The position numbers and the translations under genes were made by a program. Positions 2,782 through 37,297 of a DNA stretch of 43,587 nt are shown here, one piece after another. The notes under the pieces are model-generated. The model saw nothing but the letters and a program-made list of their open reading frames with translations. It did not search any database and was not told the DNA's origin. The DNA is from Escherichia phage K1G, in sequence record NC_027993.1, one strand, 5' to 3'. Numbering within the stretch: the first letter of the stretch is position 1; every line of letters starts with the position of its first letter.

Positions 2782-3858
2782 ATGCTATTAACTTTAGCGC
2801 CACAGGGTTTATTTATGAGCTTACTGACATCATTAATCAGTCACCAGATTTGGCTGCAACGCACCGCATCTGGTGAGGTGAAAGACCTAGCACCATTCAT
2901 TCAGGAGATGCGCGATGAAATCAAACGGCAGGTGTTGTTGTTCGGCGACGACGGGCGAAGCACAGCACGTCTGAATAAATTGTTACGCGACCTAGAAGAA
3001 GCACTGACCGGGTTAACCGGTGACTGGCAAACGAAGCTGACAGAAGACCTTAAGGAACTGGCGGCGTACGAGGCCGAGTGGAATGTGAAGACACTCGCGG
3101 CTAACGTTAACACGGAATTTGTTACCCCTACCGCTGAGCAGGTGTGGTCCGCCGCTGTGTTCCAACCGCTGGCTTTAAGCGACAAGCCAGCAGATTTCAC
3201 GAAACTTATGGAAGGCTGGGGTGAAACAGAAGTGTCGCGCCTAGTAACTGGCGTTAAGATGGGGTTTGTACAGGGCCAGACAACACGGCAGATTATCAAG
3301 AGCGTTGTTGGCTCCGGCGGGCTGGCGGACATCTCAGAGCGCAATGCCGCTACCGTAATCCGCACCGCACTTTCACACGTATCTAACGAAGCCCGCAACG
3401 AGACTTATCGGCAGAACAGCGACATCATCGAGAAATACGAATGGGTGTCAACACTGGACAGCCGTACCAGCACGATATGCAAGGCCAGAGATGGCATGAC
3501 ATGGGAAATCGGTAAAGGCCCTACGCCGCCAGCCCATCCGAATTGTCGAAGTACCACAGCACCTGTAATTAGCTCAGAGTTCGACTTCCTTGATGCAGGC
3601 GCAAAACGTGCTGCCAAAGGTGCTGATGGCGGAACGCAAGTAAGCGCGGATACCACTTACTACGAGTTCCTTAAACAACAACCGGCGTGGTTTCAGGACC
3701 AGGCGCTCGGCCCGGTGCGAGGTAAGATTTTCCGTAACAGCGGTATATCGCCGGAAGAGTTTCGCGTAATATCTGTAGATGGTTTCGGGAATCCGCTCAC
3801 GCTTAAGCAGATGGCGGAACTCGATAAACGTGTTGCTGATTATCTGAAAGGGGAATAA
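2782..3858 (+). CDS. head morphogenesis / minor capsid protein (start uncertain, alt ATG 2815)
   Basis: 358-aa ORF following portal, the usual position of the head-morphogenesis gene in siphovirus late operons; no strong RBS. Confidence 0.55.
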   Translation: MLLTLAPQGLFMSLLTSLISHQIWLQRTASGEVKDLAPFIQEMRDEIKRQVLLFGDDGRSTARLNKLLRDLEEALTGLTGDWQTKLTEDLKELAAYEAEWNVKTLAANVNTEFVTPTAEQVWSAAVFQPLALSDKPADFTKLMEGWGETEVSRLVTGVKMGFVQGQTTRQIIKSVVGSGGLADISERNAATVIRTALSHVSNEARNETYRQNSDIIEKYEWVSTLDSRTSTICKARDGMTWEIGKGPTPPAHPNCRSTTAPVISSEFDFLDAGAKRAAKGADGGTQVSADTTYYEFLKQQPAWFQDQALGPVRGKIFRNSGISPEEFRVISVDGFGNPLTLKQMAELDKRVADYLKGE

Positions 3859-5240: not shown

Positions 5241-5942
5241 ATGAATCGTTTTTTACGTTATCCGTTCCAGGAAGAAGCTGGAGCAGAAGATAAATCAGGC
5301 GGCGGTGACGCACCTAAAATGTACACAGCCGAAGAAGTGCAGGCGCTGATTGAGAAAGAAGTCGCCGGGCTTAAGGCTAACCAGGAAGCATTGCTGAACG
5401 AGAAGAAAGAAGCCGCTCGTAAAGCAAAAGAGGCCGAAGAAGAGCGGCAGCGTGCACACCAGGAGGCCCTGAAAGCCGCCGGTAAGATGGACGAGTTCGA
5501 AAAGACGATTCGTAGCCAGTATGACCCGGTGTTAGCCGAGAAAGATGGTCGCATCTCCAGAATGGCAGAGCGCATCCTCGGCAGCGAACGCAAAGCGGTG
5601 TTAGGTTCTTTCGCGGGTGACTTCATTACCCCGGAAGCAGTAGACATTCTCGCGCCGTTCGTTAAGACTGAGTTTGAAGGTGATGATGTGGTTACTAAGT
5701 TTGTCGGCGCGGATGGCAACGTAGTCACAACTGACCCGGAACAGTTCCGCAAATACCTGCGCGAACATAAAGCGTTTTCGCATTTGATTAAAGCAAATGC
5801 AGCTTCCGGCGGCGGGGCTTCCGGTAGCAAAGGCGGCGGGGCCGCACCAGCGTTTAAAGACATGAGTGAAGCAGAGCGTTTAGCCCTGTATAAATCGAAC
5901 CCTGCCGAATTTGAACGGCAACTTAAAGCCCTGAGGAAATAA
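5241..5942 (+). CDS. scaffolding protein
   Basis: Ala/Glu/Lys-rich coiled-coil protein immediately upstream of major capsid gene; RBS AGGGGA before ATG at 5241 (track ORF begins further upstream at 5187). Confidence 0.55.
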   Translation: MNRFLRYPFQEEAGAEDKSGGGDAPKMYTAEEVQALIEKEVAGLKANQEALLNEKKEAARKAKEAEEERQRAHQEALKAAGKMDEFEKTIRSQYDPVLAEKDGRISRMAERILGSERKAVLGSFAGDFITPEAVDILAPFVKTEFEGDDVVTKFVGADGNVVTTDPEQFRKYLREHKAFSHLIKANAASGGGASGSKGGGAAPAFKDMSEAERLALYKSNPAEFERQLKALRK

Positions 5943-5944
5943 TA

Positions 5945-6994
5945 ATGGCAATTACCACTATCGGCGATATCGTAACTGGCAACATCCCGGTCCTGGCGTC
6001 TTATATGACCGAGGACCCGGTAGAAAAAACCGCGTTCTTCCAGTCTGGTATTCTGACCCCGACTCCGTACGCTGCCGAGATTGCTCGCGGTCCGTCCAAC
6101 GTCGCCAACATTCCTTTCTGGAAAGCGATTGATACTTCTATCGAGCCTAACTACTCGAACGATGTTTATCAGGACATCGCTACCCCGCGTAATGTGCAGA
6201 CTGGCGAGATGATGGCCCGCGTTGCGTACCTGAACGAAGGTTTCGGTCAGGCGGACCTGACTGTCGAACTGACCAGCCAGAACCCTCTGCAATCCGTAGC
6301 GTCCCGTCTGGATAACTTCTGGCAGCGTCAGGCACAACGCCGTCTGATTGCTACCGCGCTCGGTCTGTACAACGACAACGTAGCTGCTACCGATGCTTAC
6401 CATACGCAGAACGATATGGTTATCGACGTGTCCGCTACTCTGGGCTTCGACGCAGGTGCGTTCATCGACGCCACTCAGACTATGGGCGATGCTCTGATGG
6501 GTAACGGTGGTGAGGTGCTGGGCGCTATCGCGATGCACAGCTTCGTTTATGCACAGGCGCGTAAGCAGCAGCTTATCGACTTCATTCGCGACGCTGACAA
6601 CAACACCATGTTTGCTAGCTACCAGGGCTACCGTGTGATTGTTGACGACAGCATGACCGTAGTCGGCACCGGCCCGAGCCGTAAGTTCATCTCCATCATC
6701 TTTGGCAACGGTGCCATCGGTTATGGTGAAGGCAACCCGTCCAACCCGCTGGAATACGAACGTGAAGCGTCCCGCGGCAATGGTGGCGGCGTTGAAACCC
6801 TGTGGACCCGTAAGACCTGGTTGCTGCACCCACTGGGCTACAGCTTCACCAGCGCGGTAATCACCGGCAACGGCACCGAGACTGTCGCCCGCTCCGCTTC
6901 CTGGCAGGACCTGGCGAACGCCTCCAACTGGAACCGTGTGGTTGACCGTAAGCATGTACCGATTGCCTTCCTGGTAACTGGTGTCGGGGCTTAA
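5945..6994 (+). CDS. major capsid protein
   Basis: 349-aa ORF after scaffold, RBS GAGGA, followed by strong terminator; position and size. Confidence 0.7.
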   Translation: MAITTIGDIVTGNIPVLASYMTEDPVEKTAFFQSGILTPTPYAAEIARGPSNVANIPFWKAIDTSIEPNYSNDVYQDIATPRNVQTGEMMARVAYLNEGFGQADLTVELTSQNPLQSVASRLDNFWQRQAQRRLIATALGLYNDNVAATDAYHTQNDMVIDVSATLGFDAGAFIDATQTMGDALMGNGGEVLGAIAMHSFVYAQARKQQLIDFIRDADNNTMFASYQGYRVIVDDSMTVVGTGPSRKFISIIFGNGAIGYGEGNPSNPLEYEREASRGNGGGVETLWTRKTWLLHPLGYSFTSAVITGNGTETVARSASWQDLANASNWNRVVDRKHVPIAFLVTGVGA

Positions 6995-7010
6995 GGTTAA
7001 GATATAATCG

Positions 7011-7037
7011 AGAGGGACTTCGGTCCCTCTTTTCATT
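7011..7037 (+). terminator. rho-independent terminator
   Basis: AGAGGGAC-TTCG-GTCCCTCT hairpin (UUCG tetraloop) followed by TTTCATTT. Confidence 0.7.
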
Positions 7038-7053
7038 TACTAAGAGGTAAATT

Positions 7054-7353
7054 ATGGCTAAGACCGGAAAAGGCTTGCCTCGCAGCCTTCAGAATGTCGA
7101 CTTCGGCGACTTTGACATCCCAGTAACGCCGGCTACTACCAGCGTAGTTGGTGGGGTTAAAAAGTCAGCTACTGTAGCCGCCCCCGCGGCCATTACCGCT
7201 GCCGCCGGGTCGCAGTCCGCTGCGGACCCGACTAAGACCGAGTTCGATGCCCTTGTAGCCGAGTACAACAAACTTCGAACTGATGTAACCGCGCTGCGCA
7301 CTACCGTAGCAAATCTGTTGACTGCGCTTAAAAATGCAGGAACTGTAAGCTAA
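7054..7353 (+). CDS. hypothetical structural protein
   Basis: 99-aa ORF with RBS AAGAGG; in head gene block. Confidence 0.5.
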   Translation: MAKTGKGLPRSLQNVDFGDFDIPVTPATTSVVGGVKKSATVAAPAAITAAAGSQSAADPTKTEFDALVAEYNKLRTDVTALRTTVANLLTALKNAGTVS

Positions 7354-7365
7354 AGGAGCTTAAAA

Positions 7366-7716
7366 ATGGTTGATGTAATCAAACGTCGTATTACTGGTGT
7401 TTCTGATGATTCTCCTGCCGATGGTCAGGTTGAAATCGATATGGCGAATATCTCGCCCGCATCTTTTTCTACCGCACTTGCCGCTACCACTACCAAGTCT
7501 ACGGGGCAGACGATGACCCTTACTGTAGCCGTAATCGGCGGTCTGGCCCCGTACACATACCAGTGGTACAAAGATAACAACGCTATCCCTGGCGCTACCG
7601 CCGCCACCTACGAGAAAACTTCGCTCGCTACTACCGATTCCGGTACGTATAAAGTGGTTGTTCACGATGTGTATGGTAATATTATCTCCAGCAGCACTGT
7701 AGCAACTGTGTCTTAA
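7366..7716 (+). CDS. Ig-like domain protein
   Basis: RBS AAAGGAG; motif APYTYQWYKDNNAI...SGTYKVVV paralogous to C-terminus of 3858..4319. Confidence 0.5.
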   Translation: MVDVIKRRITGVSDDSPADGQVEIDMANISPASFSTALAATTTKSTGQTMTLTVAVIGGLAPYTYQWYKDNNAIPGATAATYEKTSLATTDSGTYKVVVHDVYGNIISSSTVATVS

Positions 7717-7752
7717 TACAACGGCCCTTCGGGGCCGTAATAAGGAAAGGTC

Positions 7753-7932
7753 ATGGCAGATAATTATGTAATCCGCGAAAAGTACACCCACGTTGATATG
7801 GTTGATGGTCAGGTGATACCCGTGCGCGGTGTTGTAGAGGCGGATGAGCTGGTTGCAACCCAACCGGACAGCGAAGAAGCGCACAACAACGGCGGTGGGA
7901 CTAAACGTCGTCGCCGTAAGTCTGAGGAATAG
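7753..7932 (+). CDS. small hypothetical protein (59 aa, below ORF-track cutoff)
   Basis: ATG preceded by AAGGAAAGG RBS and by hairpin ACGGCCC-TTCG-GGGCCGT (7721-7738); basic C-terminus. Confidence 0.4.
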   Translation: MADNYVIREKYTHVDMVDGQVIPVRGVVEADELVATQPDSEEAHNNGGGTKRRRRKSEE

Positions 7933-7986
7933 TAATATCTGGCGTAGTGGTATAATGAATCCATCCTCCATTGAAAAGGGTGAATC

Positions 7987-8736
7987 ATGAACTACGCCAA
8001 AATCTATGAACAGTTAATATCGAACGCAAAAATCAATCCGTTTAGTGGGTATACCGAAAAACATCACATAGTCCCGAAATGCATGGGTGGTGGGGATACT
8101 TTTGACAATATTGTATCTTTGAGCGCTAGACAGCATTTTATTGCGCATTGGCTTCTCTATAAGATACACGGGACTAAAGAACTAGCTTTCGCCTGGAGGG
8201 TTATGTGTATTAACCCTAAAAACAATCAAAGGTCAAAAGTTAACTCACATTCCTTTAAGTTGGCGAAAGAGGCTTGGGCTATAGAGATGTCCAGGTTGAA
8301 TACTGGTGTTAAATTTTCTGATAAACGTATAGAAAATCTCAGACAAGCACATCTAGGGCAAAAGGCGTGGAATAAAGGAATTGCTACCGGGGAAACTGCA
8401 AGTAGAAAAGCCAGAATAGAGCATTACATGGCGAACCCACAACGATGTGTAACATGCGACCAGCCGATCCACTACCGTTTTAAATCACGAGCGCGTAAAT
8501 ATTGCTGCAAGAAATGCCAGTTCGCGGACCCAAATAGAATCGTTGGCAAGGTTAATAGAAAACCTAACTCCGGAAGTTTTAAGAAGGGCCATACGTTAAA
8601 GGGCGAGACTGTCAAGAAAATTTCAGATAAACTTACTGGAATGAAACGCCCGCGCGGGGTATGCCCACATTGCGGAACCGAAGGGGCGCTATCTCTTCTA
8701 AAGAGGTGGCACTTTGATAACTGTAAGAAGGGGTGA
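7987..8736 (+). CDS. HNH endonuclease
   Basis: motif HHIVPKCMGGGDTFDNIVSLSARQHFIAHW (HNH His-Asn-His core) plus C-terminal CxxC pairs; RBS AAAAGGGTG. Confidence 0.8.
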   Translation: MNYAKIYEQLISNAKINPFSGYTEKHHIVPKCMGGGDTFDNIVSLSARQHFIAHWLLYKIHGTKELAFAWRVMCINPKNNQRSKVNSHSFKLAKEAWAIEMSRLNTGVKFSDKRIENLRQAHLGQKAWNKGIATGETASRKARIEHYMANPQRCVTCDQPIHYRFKSRARKYCCKKCQFADPNRIVGKVNRKPNSGSFKKGHTLKGETVKKISDKLTGMKRPRGVCPHCGTEGALSLLKRWHFDNCKKG

Positions 8737-8739
8737 AAA

Positions 8740-9252
8740 GTGTCCTTAACCGTAGAAACAGGTCAAATTATAGAAGGGGCCGATTCGTACATCTCACTGG
8801 CTGACGCCCGCGCGTTAGCGGCTAATTACGGTCTTGAGTTACCTGCCGACGACACTGACGCCGAAGTAGCTCTGCGTAATGGTGCTGCTTATGTCGGGCT
8901 CGCCGAAACGCAGATGTGCGGCCGCCGTGTATCCGCCGAACAGTCTCTGGCGTATCCTCGCACTGGGGTAACGTTAAACGGATTCCCCGTAGCTAACAAC
9001 GTCATCCCGAAGCAGGTAATTCTTGCGCAGGTAATTGCTGCTGTTACCTATGGCGCGGGTACTGAGGTGCGGGCTAACTCAGACGGGCGTTCCGTGCAGA
9101 CTGAGCGTGTCGAGGGTGCGGTGACAGTGACCTACTTCAACAACGGCAACAGCGGGGCTACAACTGCTATTACCGCTGCGGACGACGCTTTACGCCCGTT
9201 ACTGTGTGGCGGTCTTAACAACGGCTTCTCATTTAATGTGTACCGGGGTTAA
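8740..9252 (+). CDS. head-tail connector-region protein (function by position only), GTG start
   Basis: 170-aa ORF between head and tail blocks. Confidence 0.5.
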   Translation: MSLTVETGQIIEGADSYISLADARALAANYGLELPADDTDAEVALRNGAAYVGLAETQMCGRRVSAEQSLAYPRTGVTLNGFPVANNVIPKQVILAQVIAAVTYGAGTEVRANSDGRSVQTERVEGAVTVTYFNNGNSGATTAITAADDALRPLLCGGLNNGFSFNVYRG

Positions 9253-9254
9253 AA

Positions 9255-9701
9255 ATGGCGAAGACTAAAACAGAGATATTTACGCTAATCGGGTCCGAGC
9301 TACCTGACAACACGACCGGGAAAATTACACCAGCTAAATTGCGTGGCGTACTTACGCAGATGGCCGACTCGCCTATTTACACCACTCCTGGGGTGAAAGA
9401 GGTCGAAGTTCTCCGCGCTGCGTCGACCATAGCGCAAGCGCCGACCGCGGTAGATACAGCATTGCAATTAACTTTCGGCTCCGCTAAGGGAAGTGCATCT
9501 GACCCGGTAATGATTAATGCCGCAGGGCTGGTTACGTTCAACACCGCAGGTAACTACGCCGCTCGCATCAAGTTACAGGCGGGGCGTACTGGCGCTAGTG
9601 GGACATCAATCCTGCTATCACGTATTTTAGTAAACGGTGCTCAGTACGGCTCTCCCGCAGCAACTAAGCTGGTAAGCGCGGACGTGACCCATCCCGATTG
9701 A
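9255..9701 (+). CDS. hypothetical structural protein
   Basis: 148-aa ORF; followed by a 260-bp stretch lacking an annotated gene in which the +1 frame stays open. Confidence 0.5.
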   Translation: MAKTKTEIFTLIGSELPDNTTGKITPAKLRGVLTQMADSPIYTTPGVKEVEVLRAASTIAQAPTAVDTALQLTFGSAKGSASDPVMINAAGLVTFNTAGNYAARIKLQAGRTGASGTSILLSRILVNGAQYGSPAATKLVSADVTHPD

Positions 9702-9870
9702 ATCCCGCGTCGTTATTAACCCCGCAGCAGGCCAGACGTTTGCCGTTCAGATTATGCGGGATGGTGCCGGAAGCAACTTCGGCGGCGTGTACCCACAAGC
9801 CGCTACCGTAACAGCATGGGGCACAGCACCGTCCGCGCTACTGGTTATTTCGAGACTGGAGGCCGCTTGA
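9688..9870 (+). other. stop-free +1 frame segment downstream of 9255..9701 (possible frameshifted C-terminal extension, pseudogene fragment or small unannotated gene)
   Basis: 60 sense codons reading ...INPAAGQTFAVQIMRDGAGSNFGGVYPQAATVTAWGTAPSALLVISRLEAA with no RBS-linked start; overlaps upstream stop at CCC GAU UGA. Confidence 0.3.
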
Positions 9871-9964
9871 TGAATAAGTTCACATGTGGTGTAGTTTTTG
9901 GTTTTCTTACCGCGGTAGTCTTGCACAGTTACGGTGTTCTTTTGACGCTGCAAGAGGTGCTAAA

Positions 9965-10324
9965 ATGAGCACCGCTTTCAGTAAACGTATGCAAGGCGTG
10001 GGTACGCGCCTGCTAACCAAATTCGGTAGCACGGTATCTCTGATTCGCGCTGGTTCAAAAGTATGGGATGAAGTTCTCGGTGAGTACGTATGGTCTGACG
10101 ATGAAGTGTTGCCGTTGAAGGCCGTTCCGGTTCCGGTAAACGCGGGACTGGTAAATGGTATGACGATTCAGGCCGGCGACATGATTGTTAAAGCTGATTG
10201 CAGTGTCGTTCCGAAGATGGAAGACAAGGTGCAATTCGGCGGCGAGCAATGGTCCATCGTAGCTATTGAGAAGAAGATGGTTAACGATGACGTCGTGGCG
10301 TACTTTATTCAGGTGAGAAAATGA
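9965..10324 (+). CDS. hypothetical head-tail joining protein
   Basis: ATG at 9965 with RBS GAGGTG; track ORF 9884 extension upstream is not protein-like. Confidence 0.5.
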   Translation: MSTAFSKRMQGVGTRLLTKFGSTVSLIRAGSKVWDEVLGEYVWSDDEVLPLKAVPVPVNAGLVNGMTIQAGDMIVKADCSVVPKMEDKVQFGGEQWSIVAIEKKMVNDDVVAYFIQVRK

Positions 10325-10716
10325 GTTTCGCGCTCGATGTCTCTAAGTTCGTGGAAAAGGCGAAGAAGAACCCTGAGAAGGTGATGCGTCAGGTGTCTAT
10401 CAAGCTGTTTTCCGCTATCATAAAGGCGAGTCCGGTAGACACGGGCCGCTTTCGTATGAACTGGATGGCATCTGGCGGTACTCCTGCTTCCGGGATTACG
10501 GACGCTACGGATAAATCAGGAAACACAGCAACCGGAAACGCTACGAGTTTCGTGCTGAAAGCCGCTGACTGGCATGAGTTCACGCTGACAAATAATCTGC
10601 CGTATGCGCAACGGCTGGAGTATGGTTGGTCGCAACAGGCGCCAGCCGGGGTTGTCAGGACTAATGTGTCTCGCTTCCAGCAACTCATTAACGAAGAAGC
10701 CAACAAGGTGAAATGA
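10321..10716 (+). CDS. hypothetical tail-associated protein
   Basis: ATGA start/stop overlap with upstream gene; in tail block. Confidence 0.55.
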   Translation: MSFALDVSKFVEKAKKNPEKVMRQVSIKLFSAIIKASPVDTGRFRMNWMASGGTPASGITDATDKSGNTATGNATSFVLKAADWHEFTLTNNLPYAQRLEYGWSQQAPAGVVRTNVSRFQQLINEEANKVK

Positions 10717-36452: not shown

Positions 36453-36621
36453 CTTTAACGTTCTCCTTAATCCACGCCTCCACAGTAGCGCGGTCAAAGG
36501 TACCTGGCTGACGGTAGCCGTTGATAACGCGGCAACACTCCGGGAACTTTCCTGACCGAAGCCAGCGATTAAGAGTCATAGGGGAAACCCCGATTAAGTC
36601 TGCTACTTCTTTCTGTGTCAT
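36442..36621 (-). CDS. AlpA/Xis-like HTH DNA-binding protein
   Basis: MTQKEVADLIGVSPMTLNRWLRSGKFP; ATG at 36621 with RBS GAGGG (track ORF begins at TTG 36651). Confidence 0.6.
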   Translation of the reverse strand: MTQKEVADLIGVSPMTLNRWLRSGKFPECCRVINGYRQPGTFDRATVEAWIKENVKDAN

Positions 36622-36778
36622 TTTACGCGCCCTCTCTATCAAGTGAAACAACTATAACACCTACAATAGACAAACACAACCTATTGACAAAATAAAATGT
36701 AGCTGTAAAATCAACGTATCGAATGGCTTTAGTTAAGAATTACTTAGAAACAATATTCTTAAGTCTCGGGTACTTAAA

Positions 36779-36798
36779 GCCCCGCCATAAAGCGGGGC
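36779..36798 (-). promoter_or_regulatory. leader hairpin, reverse-orientation copy of the 4618-4637 hairpin
   Basis: GCCCCGC-CATAAA-GCGGGGC on + strand equals reverse complement of the spanin leader hairpin. Confidence 0.35.
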
Positions 36799-37042
36799 GC
36801 TAAATAGTACTCTTGGTAACGTTAGTATCTAAGTTTCCTCAAAGTAACAGCAAGTGGCAAGAAAGCCCCCGTCTATTTAAATTTTACCCTCCTTCATAAG
36901 CCACTGATAATTAAAAGTTTCTATAGTTGCCGTAAACGTGGAAGAGAGTACTTCACTTCGCTGGGGTGGGCTAACGCCCACCCACTGCGTTGCGTACTCT
37001 TTTAAGAAACGAAAGAATCACAACGGCAACGTAACTATTCTC

Positions 37043-37071
37043 TTGCACACCCCAACATAATAGGATACTAT
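37043..37071 (+). promoter_or_regulatory. early promoter TTGCAC-N17-TACTAT (family 2)
   Basis: cTTGCACaccccaacatAATAGGATACTATTcac. Confidence 0.5.
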
Positions 37072-37096
37072 TCACTTATCGAAACGAGACAGAGGA

Positions 37097-37297
37097 GTGA
37101 GGGTTATGTTTAAACGTGGTCAGTTGGTTAAATACTCCGACGATAAACACGGCATAATTGAATTAAAATCTGCTTTATTTCCAGGAAAGTACGTAGTTAC
37201 CGTGCAAAATGTGAGAGGAGTAAATTCACAAATATACGTAGCGGAGGAGAACTTAAAACTCATCGGCAACAATTTTAAATTTAAAGGGGGAGGGTGA
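37097..37297 (+). CDS. hypothetical early protein
   Basis: 66 aa, RBS GAGGAGTGAGGG. Confidence 0.5.
   Translation: MRVMFKRGQLVKYSDDKHGIIELKSALFPGKYVVTVQNVRGVNSQIYVAEENLKLIGNNFKFKGGG

What the first reader, a model, noticed from the sequence alone, without database searches (positions are those of the whole stretch)
7987..8736. Free-standing HNH endonuclease inserted between head and head-tail connector genes
A 249-aa HNH protein with extra CxxC zinc-finger-like pairs sits alone in the structural operon, preceded by a hairpin and a small ORF. It could be a homing endonuclease or a packaging-associated nuclease.
Basis: partly seen in the sequence, partly recalled or inferred. Interest (0 to 1): 0.35.

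Follow-up and report, generated by a model that had tools for sequence, protein, structure and literature searches.

The report
Mobile HNH homing endonuclease in coliphage
This is an ordinary selfish mobile gene, a Mob-like HNH homing endonuclease, that has copied itself in front of the head-tail adaptor gene of a Kagunavirus E. coli phage and is absent from almost all related phages.

Summary
The ORF is real: 7987..8736, + strand, 249 aa. The window is a Kagunavirus (Guernseyvirinae) E. coli phage.

The protein matches phrog_655 "homing endonuclease" (E 1.8e-55). It aligns over its full length, at about 32% identity, with T-even MobE-type free-standing HNH endonucleases. It keeps the invariant HH...N...H...H motif and two zinc-finger cysteine clusters.

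Evidence for mobility:
- GC is 43%, against 53-56% in the flanks.
- 398 of 463 related phage records carry the uninterrupted empty site, where 3 nt separate the small-ORF stop from the adaptor ATG. Only one other record (PQ579973) has the gene.
- That copy shares a 99.4%-identical tract (7906-8800) set in flanks only 88-90% identical.
- The tract includes a recoded first 60 nt of the adaptor gene, about 50% identical to empty-site alleles.
- Ten metagenomic relatives (46-85% aa identity) all sit directly upstream of an adaptor (Pfam DnaT_2, or its N-terminal motif) gene, even when the upstream neighbours differ.
- dN/dS is about 0.08.

A start-site-sequestering RNA structure precedes the gene, as in T-even homing endonuclease genes.

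The homing reading is supported and the packaging-nuclease alternative is rejected. This is a new member of a known kind, of low to moderate interest.

The parts
7753..7932 (+). Conserved 59-aa ORF of unknown function (phrog_4451). It is the last resident gene before the insertion. In empty-site relatives its stop codon lies 3 nt before the adaptor ATG.
7906..8800 (+). Tract shared at 99.4% with the only other carrier, phage MirsaeidiM_Esher4. This is the inferred transferred or co-converted cassette. Flanks outside it are about 90% (left) and 88% (right) identical.
7933..7986 (+). 54-nt leader brought in with the endonuclease gene. It holds a -10-like box with an upstream TG (TGGTATAAT, 7948-7956) and an SD (AAGGGTGA, about 7976-7983).
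   Evidence: the promoter scan found no full sigma-70 site
7940..7998 (+). RNA structure that encloses the SD and AUG. The outer 9-bp stem pairs 7940-7948 with codons 2-4 of the endonuclease (7990-7998). The inner imperfect hairpin spans 7955-7988. Stronger SD-sequestering hairpins occupy the same place in 7 relatives.
7987..8736 (+). Free-standing Mob-like HNH homing endonuclease gene, 249 aa, GC 42.8%.
8050..8157 (+). HNH catalytic core, aa 22-57 (YTEKHHIVPKCMGGGDTFDNIVSLSARQHFIAHWLL). The model predicts a beta-beta-alpha fold (E23-27, E42-46, H47-61) with pLDDT above 90.
8446..8517 (+). Internal zinc finger, C154-x2-C157 ... C173-x3-C177. It shows weak YacG-like similarity.
8662..8724 (+). 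C-terminal CxxC...HxxxC zinc finger (CPHCG...LKRWHFDNC), invariant across the family.
8725..8742 (+). SD for the adaptor gene (AAGAAGGGG), embedded in the last codons of the endonuclease gene. It is followed by the TGA stop, then AAA, then a GTG start that replaces the ATG of empty-site alleles.
8740..8799 (+). Recoded first 60 nt (20 codons) of the adaptor gene. It is 60/60 identical to the other carrier and 29-33/60 identical to empty-site alleles. Both Ser codons switch between AGY and TCN. This is the inferred target-site or immunity patch.
8740..9252 (+). Head-tail adaptor Ad1 (Pfam DnaT_2, phrog_477). It is the gene that this endonuclease clade always precedes, and the inferred target gene.

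Best explanation
The ORF at 7987-8736 is a free-standing HNH homing endonuclease gene of the T-even 'Mob-like' type: an N-terminal HNH nuclease followed by NUMOD3-type and zinc-finger DNA-binding modules. It is a selfish mobile cassette resident in a Kagunavirus genome.

Inferred mechanism: during co-infection with a relative that lacks the gene, the enzyme nicks or cuts that genome in the first ~60 nt of the head-tail adaptor (Ad1) gene. Recombinational repair from the carrier genome then copies in the whole cassette. The cassette comprises a 54-nt leader, the endonuclease ORF, and a recoded 5' end of Ad1 with its own SD and GTG start. The recoded patch most likely makes carrier genomes uncleavable.

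Translation of the endonuclease is probably held down on read-through late-operon mRNA by an RNA structure that buries its SD and AUG, as in T-even homing endonuclease genes.

Shown: homology, sporadic distribution, empty sites, transfer between backbones, fidelity to the Ad1 gene, purifying selection, and the predicted RNA structure.

Inferred: cleavage activity, the exact target, immunity conferred by the patch, and the regulatory role of the structure.
For: Homology:
- phrog_655 'homing endonuclease' E 1.8e-55.
- Full-length tblastn matches to MobE of T6 and T4-like phages, 32-34% identity over 99-100% of the query, E 1e-20 to 1e-24.
- The family profile hits the HNH domains of a group II intron maturase (E 2e-4), McrA and Cas8-HNH.
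- HH/N/H/H are invariant. A beta-beta-alpha fold is predicted with pLDDT above 90.
- NUMOD3 is found in 18 of 28 aligned family sequences.

Foreign composition: GC is 0.428, against 0.556 (Ad1) and 0.531 (left flank).

Sporadic distribution:
- 477 phage records match the flanks, but only PQ579973 has the gene, at 99.5% nt identity.
- The uninterrupted junction is present in 398 of 463 records.

Recent transfer: window and PQ579973 share 7906-8800 at 99.4%, while their flanks are ~90% and ~88% identical. The window's left flank is 99-100% identical to the gene-less phages phiEc3 and Bas70.

Target inference:
- The first 60 nt of Ad1 are 48-55% identical to empty alleles. The next 30 nt are 93-97% identical.
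- Relatives at 85, 72, 66, 55, 54, 53, 50 and 50% aa identity all sit directly upstream of a DnaT_2 adaptor gene, even where the upstream genes differ.
- Relatives at 47% and 46% identity (L107, L106) sit directly upstream of an ORF with the Ad1 N-terminal motif and weak BLASTP similarity to Ad1.
- L107 has a 34-nt direct repeat (33/34) of the Ad1 5' end flanking the gene.
- L106 keeps an upstream 'MALIVEDGSIVNG' remnant of the Ad1 N-terminus.

Function maintained: dN/dS is 0.08, and all 8 ORFs whose coding sequences were translated are intact.

RNA structure.

Precedents: MobE nicks the 5' region of the downstream gene nrdB, and the recombination point maps there (PMC2790892). SD-sequestering hairpins regulate I-TevI/II/III, segB and Aeh1 mobE (PMC2988022).
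Against: - No biochemical evidence of cleavage exists, and the target is inferred only from recombination boundaries.
- The window protein scores below Pfam's HNH gathering threshold (18.8 vs 21.4 bits) and has no NUMOD3 call of its own.
- Five E. coli phage records that lack the endonuclease carry the same 'type B' Ad1 5' end, next to a 50-aa Cys-rich ORF at the same site. The patch may therefore be an older allele rather than something created by or for the endonuclease.
- The inner hairpin in the window itself is no more stable than shuffled sequence (z -0.06).
- No significant remnant of the displaced Ad1 5' end is detectable in the window's leader.
Confidence: 0.85

Rival explanations
1. 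It is a packaging-associated HNH nuclease, a terminase cofactor of the HK97 gp74 type that is needed for genome cutting during head filling.
For: It is an HNH protein with zinc-binding cysteine clusters in the late structural operon. Phage HNH proteins next to terminase genes are a known class (abstract of PMC3592412).
Against: It is absent from at least 398 related phages, which therefore package DNA without it. It lies 5-7 kb downstream of the large terminase (1-1251) and portal (1264-2745), after the capsid genes. It is 249 aa long, with full-length homology to Mob-type homing endonucleases. Its GC content is foreign.
Confidence: 0.03
2. It is a stranded or inactive endonuclease gene. It no longer homes and is kept only because the essential adaptor gene now depends on the SD and start context embedded in its 3' end.
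For: The Ad1 SD (8725-8733) lies inside the endonuclease ORF, and the Ad1 start is GTG. The T4 review notes that embedding host signals favours retention of such genes. The gene is rare in sequenced isolates: one other record among 477.
Against: Purifying selection acts over the whole protein (dN/dS 0.08). The catalytic residues are invariant and all eight ORFs whose coding sequences were translated are intact. A 99.4%-identical cassette sits on two backbones that differ by 10-12%, which implies a recent transfer with tight boundaries.
Confidence: 0.1
3. Its main selected role is inter-phage competition: it cuts the adaptor gene of co-infecting relatives to exclude their markers or reduce their yield. 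Self-propagation would be a by-product.
For: This is compatible with every observation that supports homing. The inferred target is an essential virion gene. T-even homing endonucleases cause marker exclusion in T4 x T2 crosses (PMC2988022).
Against: Nothing here separates this reading from plain selfish homing. The element is rare among isolates, which argues against a strong advantage to the carrier.
Confidence: 0.2

Closest known systems
MobE of phages T4/T6 (free-standing HNH homing endonuclease between nrdA and nrdB)
   Same: It aligns over its full length at about 32% identity (E 9e-24 to T6 mobE), and the window protein falls in the same PHROG family annotated as homing endonuclease (phrog_655). 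The layout is the same: N-terminal HNH, then DNA-binding modules. Both are free-standing and sit immediately upstream of the gene that carries the inferred target. In both, the recombination point is in the 5' end of the downstream gene (PMC2790892).
   Different: The host lineage differs: a ~44-kb Guernseyvirinae siphovirus rather than a T-even myovirus. The target gene differs: head-tail adaptor rather than ribonucleotide reductase. This gene has an internal YacG-like zinc finger. T4 mobE is promoterless with an internal terminator, whereas this gene has a leader with a -10-like box and a start-sequestering structure.
mobE of Aeromonas phage Aeh1, and I-TevI/II/III and segB of T4 (hairpin-regulated homing endonuclease genes)
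   Same: An RNA structure buries the SD or AUG of the endonuclease gene, and a promoter-like box lies in or next to the 5' arm (PMC2988022).
   Different: Here the regulation is only predicted. In the window most of the stability comes from an outer stem pairing the leader with codons 2-4, not from the inner hairpin. Aeh1 mobE splits its host gene into two functional pieces. This element instead supplies a replacement 5' end.
I-HmuI (SPO1 intron-encoded HNH nicking endonuclease)
   Same: From my own knowledge, not tested here: it is a modular HNH catalytic domain followed by extended DNA-binding modules, and it acts as a strand-specific nickase.
   Different: I-HmuI is intron-encoded. No sequence or structure match to I-HmuI was recovered in the PDB searches.
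HK97 gp74-type terminase-associated HNH proteins
   Same: They carry an HNH motif, are phage-encoded, and lie in the late region.
   Different: Those proteins are small, adjacent to the terminase and cos site, and conserved within their lineage. This gene is 249 aa, distant from terminase, and absent from nearly all relatives.

Membership tests
HNH (beta-beta-alpha-metal) nuclease superfamily | Conserved His (general base), Asn and His motif residues | tested here: met
   H26, H27, N41, H50 and H54 are invariant in 28 sequences. phmmer aligns residues 16-55 to the McrA HNH domain (E 0.0044). The family profile hits the group II intron maturase HNH domain (E 2e-4).
HNH (beta-beta-alpha-metal) nuclease superfamily | Score above the Pfam PF01844 gathering threshold | tested here: not met
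   The window protein scores 18.8 bits against a cut-off of 21.4. Eleven of 28 aligned family sequences match HNH at E <= 0.01. The shortfall is marginal and does not outweigh the motif evidence.
HNH (beta-beta-alpha-metal) nuclease superfamily | Beta-beta-alpha fold around the motif | tested here: inconclusive
Mob-like free-standing HNH homing endonucleases (phrog_655; T-even MobA-E type) | Full-length sequence homology to family members | tested here: met
   phrog_655 E 1.8e-55 over residues 1-249. tblastn gives 99-100% coverage and 32-34% identity to annotated MobE and Mob-like genes.
Mob-like free-standing HNH homing endonucleases (phrog_655; T-even MobA-E type) | C-terminal NUMOD3-type DNA-binding modules | tested here: inconclusive
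   NUMOD3 (PF07460) is called in 18 of 28 aligned sequences, but not in the window protein at E <= 0.01. The aligned region, aa 105-131 and 196-220, is conserved.
Mob-like free-standing HNH homing endonucleases (phrog_655; T-even MobA-E type) | Free-standing: its own SD and start, not inside an intron or intein | tested here: met
   It has its own SD and ATG. It lies between the small ORF and Ad1, and the flanking genes are intact.
Homing endonuclease gene (functional class) | Sporadic presence, with intact empty-site alleles in close relatives | tested here: met
   One carrier among 477 flank-matching records. The junction is contiguous in 398 of 463 records.
Homing endonuclease gene (functional class) | Same insertion site relative to a conserved target gene in divergent genomes | tested here: met
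   In all 12 contexts examined (window, Esher4 and 10 metagenomic loci), the gene lies immediately upstream of the adaptor gene. Ten contexts have a DnaT_2 call or annotation. In the other two the downstream ORF has the Ad1 N-terminal motif.
Homing endonuclease gene (functional class) | Cassette more similar between carriers than their flanks (horizontal transfer or co-conversion) | tested here: met
   7906-8800 is 99.4% identical, against ~90% and ~88% for the flanks.
Homing endonuclease gene (functional class) | Site-specific cleavage or nicking of the gene-less allele, and resistance of the carrier allele | not testable with these tools
   This needs an enzyme assay. It is inferred only from the recoded 60-nt patch.
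Homing endonuclease gene (functional class) | Super-Mendelian inheritance in mixed infection | not testable with these tools
   This needs phage crosses.
Terminase-associated HNH (HK97 gp74 type) | Adjacent to the terminase, portal or cos region | tested here: not met
   The large terminase is at 1-1251 and the portal at 1264-2745. The HNH gene is at 7987-8736, after the capsid genes.
Terminase-associated HNH (HK97 gp74 type) | Conserved across the phage lineage because it is needed for packaging | tested here: not met
   It is absent from nearly all Kagunavirus and Jerseyvirus relatives.

The most novel reading that the evidence does not exclude
This endonuclease clade is a specialist of the siphovirus head-tail adaptor gene. 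It travels as a self-contained module made of a regulated endonuclease gene plus a recoded replacement 5' end of its target gene, including SD, start codon and the first 20 codons.

Each homing event would therefore rewrite the N-terminus of an essential virion protein, with 8 of the first 20 residues changed, while also conferring immunity to further cutting. The same intergenic site would be a contested hotspot, with three states in nature: empty, a 50-aa Cys-rich ORF, and the endonuclease. The endonuclease would then be driving allelic turnover of a structural gene across Guernseyvirinae and more distant phages.
Probability: 0.35. Interest if true: 0.45.

Novelty: new member of a known kind. 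Interest (0 to 1): 0.25.

Why it matters
Free-standing homing endonucleases have been worked out mostly in T-even phages. This is a clean natural example in a small, easily handled E. coli siphovirus group, Kagunavirus, which is represented in the BASEL collection.

Sequenced donor, empty-site and third-state alleles are all available. The target, the immunity patch and the co-conversion tracts could therefore be tested directly by crosses.

It also explains a local mosaic breakpoint and an N-terminal allele switch in the head-tail adaptor gene. For annotators, it shows that the gene is neither a packaging nor a structural component. None of this changes current understanding of homing endonucleases.

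Tried and rejected
- IMG/VR scan for close relatives. It returned only distant (35% or lower) Mob-like genes, so it did not help with the insertion-site question. Close relatives came from the protein search and contig look-ups instead.
- Remnant of the displaced adaptor 5' end in the window's 54-nt leader. None was significant (p 0.5-0.8 against shuffles). Remnants or duplications are clear only in L107, suggestive in L098 (p 0.016), and visible at the protein level in L106.
- Sigma-70 promoter scan. It found no full promoter in 7000-9300. The TGGTATAAT box is therefore only a -10-like match preceded by TG.
- Formal covariation count on the leader hairpin. I abandoned it because the stems are in different registers in the MAFFT alignment. 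Per-sequence folding with shuffles was used instead.
- Is the 50-aa Cys-rich ORF of the third allele a decayed endonuclease? No nucleotide similarity to the endonuclease gene was found.

Full report
**1. The observation**

Its neighbours are late structural genes:
- large terminase, 1-1251
- portal, 1264-2745
- head morphogenesis protein, 2782-3858
- scaffold, about 5244-5942
- major head protein, 5945-6994
- head fibre, 7054-7353
- Hoc-like decoration protein, 7366-7716
- a conserved 59-aa ORF, 7753-7932
- the HNH gene
- head-tail adaptor Ad1 (Pfam DnaT_2, E 6.7e-51; phrog_477), 8740-9252
- neck and tail genes

The cysteine pairs are real and conserved. They are C154-x2-C157 with C173-x3-C177, and C226-x2-C229 with H242-x3-C246.

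The GC hairpin at 7722-7737 precedes the small ORF, not the HNH gene. It is invariant in relatives that lack the HNH gene, so it belongs to the host phage.

**2. What the window is**

Megablast of 6500-10500 finds 477 phage records, led by E. coli Kagunavirus (Guernseyvirinae) at 86-94% identity. Salmonella Jerseyvirus-like phages follow at lower identity.

**3. What the protein is**

- It matches phrog_655 "homing endonuclease" over its whole length (E 1.8e-55).
- tblastn against phage genomes gives 99-100% coverage at 32-34% identity to genes annotated MobE, mobD, Mob-like or HNH homing endonuclease in T4-like phages. This includes T6 mobE next to nrdA.
- The Pfam HNH match is just below threshold (18.8 vs 21.4 bits).
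- In a 28-sequence alignment Y22, E24, H26, H27, P30, G35, N41, L45, H50, H54 and L57 are invariant.
- The family profile hits the HNH domains of a group II intron maturase (E 2e-4), McrA and Cas8-HNH.
- The AlphaFold model (mean pLDDT 80.5) predicts strand 23-27, strand 42-46 and helix 47-61 at pLDDT above 90. That is a beta-beta-alpha unit.
- NUMOD3 is called in 18 of the 28 aligned sequences, though not in the window protein itself.
- Residues 148-204 resemble the YacG zinc finger (profile E 0.007; NCBIfam E 0.0049, far below its cut-off).
- Whole-model structure searches added little.

**4. Evidence that it is a mobile insertion**

*Composition.* GC is 0.428 for the gene, against 0.556 for Ad1 and 0.531 for the kilobase to its left (profile).

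*Distribution.* Megablast with the gene alone finds one record, Escherichia phage MirsaeidiM_Esher4 (PQ579973), at 99.5% identity, annotated simply "endonuclease".

In fFiEco03, phiEc3 and Bas70 the small-ORF stop is followed by 3 nt and then the Ad1 ATG. A 161-nt query across that empty junction is matched contiguously in 398 of 463 records.

*Transfer between backbones.* Window and Esher4 are identical from 7906 to 8800 apart from four substitutions and one 1-nt indel (99.4%). They are about 90% identical over 7753-7905 and about 88% identical over 8801-9252. The window's left flank (7000-7800) is 99-100% identical to the gene-less phages phiEc3 and Bas70.

*Selection.* dN/dS is 0.08 for window vs the 85% relative, and 0.08 between two 55%-class relatives. 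All eight ORFs whose coding sequences were translated are intact.

**5. The mobile unit is larger than the ORF**

On the right, the first 60 nt of Ad1 are 60/60 identical between the two carriers. They are only 29-33/60 identical to three empty-site alleles, and those alleles are 83-93% identical to each other over the same stretch. The next 30 nt are 28-29/30 identical in every comparison.

Within the patch, 8 of the first 20 residues differ. Both conserved serines are encoded by TCN instead of AGY, and the start codon is GTG instead of ATG.

The SD for Ad1 (AAGAAGGGG, 8725-8733) lies inside the last codons of the endonuclease gene.

On the left, a 54-nt leader (7933-7986) has no counterpart in empty alleles.

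**6. Fidelity to the adaptor gene**

The large protein search found a graded series of relatives at 85, 72, 69, 66, 56-52, 50 and 47-46% identity. I looked up the contigs of ten of them.

In eight, the endonuclease gene lies directly upstream of a DnaT_2 adaptor gene. In the other two (L106, L107), it lies directly upstream of an ORF with the Ad1 N-terminal motif and weak BLASTP similarity to Ad1.

The upstream neighbours vary:
- the small ORF, in Kagunavirus-like contigs
- a Gp13-like capsid gene plus a 60-aa ORF (L098)
- a Lar-like gene cluster (L101)
- unrelated ORFs (L102)
- glycosyltransferase and methyltransferase genes (L106)

In L107 the gene is flanked by a 34-nt direct repeat (33/34) of the adaptor's 5' end. 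In L106 the sequence just upstream still reads MALIVEDGSIVNG, the type-A adaptor N-terminus.

These cases place the ancestral insertion point at roughly nt 37-43 of the adaptor gene. They also show that the element carries a replacement 5' end.

Carrier alleles always differ from empty alleles at codons 9-13: QIIEG, QIIAG, QIIDG or GKSD, against xIVPN.

By the logic of double-strand-break repair, the cut must lie inside the tract copied from the donor. I therefore infer a target in the first ~60 nt of type-A Ad1.

This mirrors T4 MobE. MobE nicks the 5' region of the downstream nrdB gene, and its recombination point maps to the first 189 nt of nrdB (PMC2790892).

**7. Regulation (inferred)**

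In seven relatives, a hairpin immediately upstream of the start codon places the SD in its 3' arm. Free energies are -7.8 to -23.3 kcal/mol. Six of the seven have z between -2.2 and -6.5, and L014 has z -1.25. The stems differ in sequence but keep a common loop, CAUCUUCUAC.

In the window the inner hairpin is weak (z -0.06). However, a 9-bp outer stem (7940-7948 with 7990-7998, that is, codons 2-4) encloses the SD and AUG. The whole structure is -21.9 kcal/mol, z -2.9. The same outer stem occurs in Esher4, L095 and L098.

A -10-like box (TGGTATAAT, 7948-7956) lies at or in the 5' arm. No full sigma-70 promoter was found.

SD-sequestering hairpins with an embedded promoter are the documented control for I-TevI/II/III, segB and Aeh1 mobE (PMC2988022).

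**8. A caveat on the immunity patch**

Five E. coli phage records have no endonuclease: M01, CR01, ST20, LM02P1 and AMO_3701M. At the same site they carry a 153-nt ORF for a 50-aa Cys-rich protein, together with the same type-B Ad1 5' end (MLIVETGQIIEGADSYISL). Four Salmonella phage records have a 75%-identical copy of that small ORF.

The type-B patch is therefore not exclusive to endonuclease carriers. It may be an older allele linked to any insert at this hotspot. Those phages may also have replaced an endonuclease.

**9. Rivals**

- A packaging HNH of the HK97 gp74 type is rejected on position, size, homology and dispensability.
- A stranded, inactive element is unlikely, given dN/dS of 0.08 and the recent transfer. 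It cannot be excluded without an assay.
- A role in competition between phages is compatible with the data but not distinguishable from plain homing here.

**10. Verdict**

This is a free-standing Mob-like HNH homing endonuclease cassette in a Kagunavirus. It is a new member of a known kind. GenBank already annotates it generically as "endonuclease" in one record.

Interest is low to moderate.

The useful extras are the clade's strict association with the adaptor gene, the portable recoded 5' end, and a three-state insertion hotspot with sequenced alleles ready for crosses.

Noticed in passing
window 9255-9870 (frameshift near 9688): The gene downstream of Ad1 (phrog_3614) is 615 nt (204 aa) in relatives. 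In the window it stops at 9701 (148 aa), because one extra base near 9688 shifts the frame (GACGTGACCCATCCC vs GATACTA-CAATCCC). The downstream sequence still aligns. This could be a sequencing error, a pseudogene or a real frameshift.
   Followed up: partly
L005 1052-1204 (phage M01); also CR01, ST20, LM02P1, AMO_3701M and four Salmonella phage records: There is a third allele of the same insertion site. A 50-aa Cys-rich ORF (MNIMRRLLCTHKY...CQECTKCG...) lies between the small ORF and Ad1. In the four phages read (M01, CR01, ST20, LM02P1) it is linked to the same type-B Ad1 5' end as the endonuclease carriers. It has no nucleotide similarity to the endonuclease gene, and only a weak NCBIfam Cys_rich_47 hit (E 0.006).
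   Followed up: partly
window 8446-8590 (endonuclease aa 153-201): The internal zinc finger resembles the DNA gyrase inhibitor YacG (PDB 1lv3/4tma: phmmer E 0.026, family profile E 0.007; Pfam YacG in 3 of 28 aligned relatives). It is probably just a shared zinc-ribbon. It explains why JGI names some homologues 'inhibitor of DNA gyrase'.
   Followed up: partly
window 7722-7737: A perfect GC hairpin with a TTCG loop (CGGCCC-TTCG-GGGCCG) lies right after the Hoc-like gene. It is invariant in all five phages aligned, whether or not they carry the endonuclease. No T-run follows, so the terminator scan did not flag it. One relative's record annotates a 'terminator' somewhere in the matched 4-kb region.
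   Followed up: no
window 6000-7700: The capsid-decoration region is sharply mosaic. 6000-7100 is essentially identical to Esher4 (100% in all but one 100-nt bin, 93/100 at 6600-6699) but 79-97% identical (bin by bin) to phiEc3 and Bas70. 7100-7600 is 99-100% identical to phiEc3 and Bas70 but about 75-82% identical, with indels, to Esher4. This implies recombination breakpoints near 7050-7100 and about 7600, independent of the endonuclease cassette.
   Followed up: no
L107 about 2455-2500 and 3429-3475; L106 about 2470-2510: In distant relatives the endonuclease gene is inserted inside the adaptor gene's 5' end. L107 has a 34-nt direct repeat (33/34) of that 5' end on both sides of the gene. 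L106 keeps an upstream remnant that reads MALIVEDGSIVNG.
   Followed up: partly
L014 2971-3001: The database gene call for relative P0015 (242 aa) is N-terminally truncated. An ATG 30 nt upstream, directly after the conserved hairpin, restores the family N-terminus (MNCSIIYTSLMDRAKNR).
   Followed up: yes
OR992644.1 20328-21116 (Escherichia phage EP-B-K_E2): Another Kagunavirus-like phage carries a 32%-identical Mob-like endonuclease at a different genomic position. The group therefore hosts more than one homing endonuclease lineage.
   Followed up: no
window 36600-37200: This is the lowest-GC stretch of the window (0.395). It contains only small ORFs of 73 aa or fewer and is probably an early or regulatory region. 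No endonuclease-family ORF was found there.
   Followed up: partly
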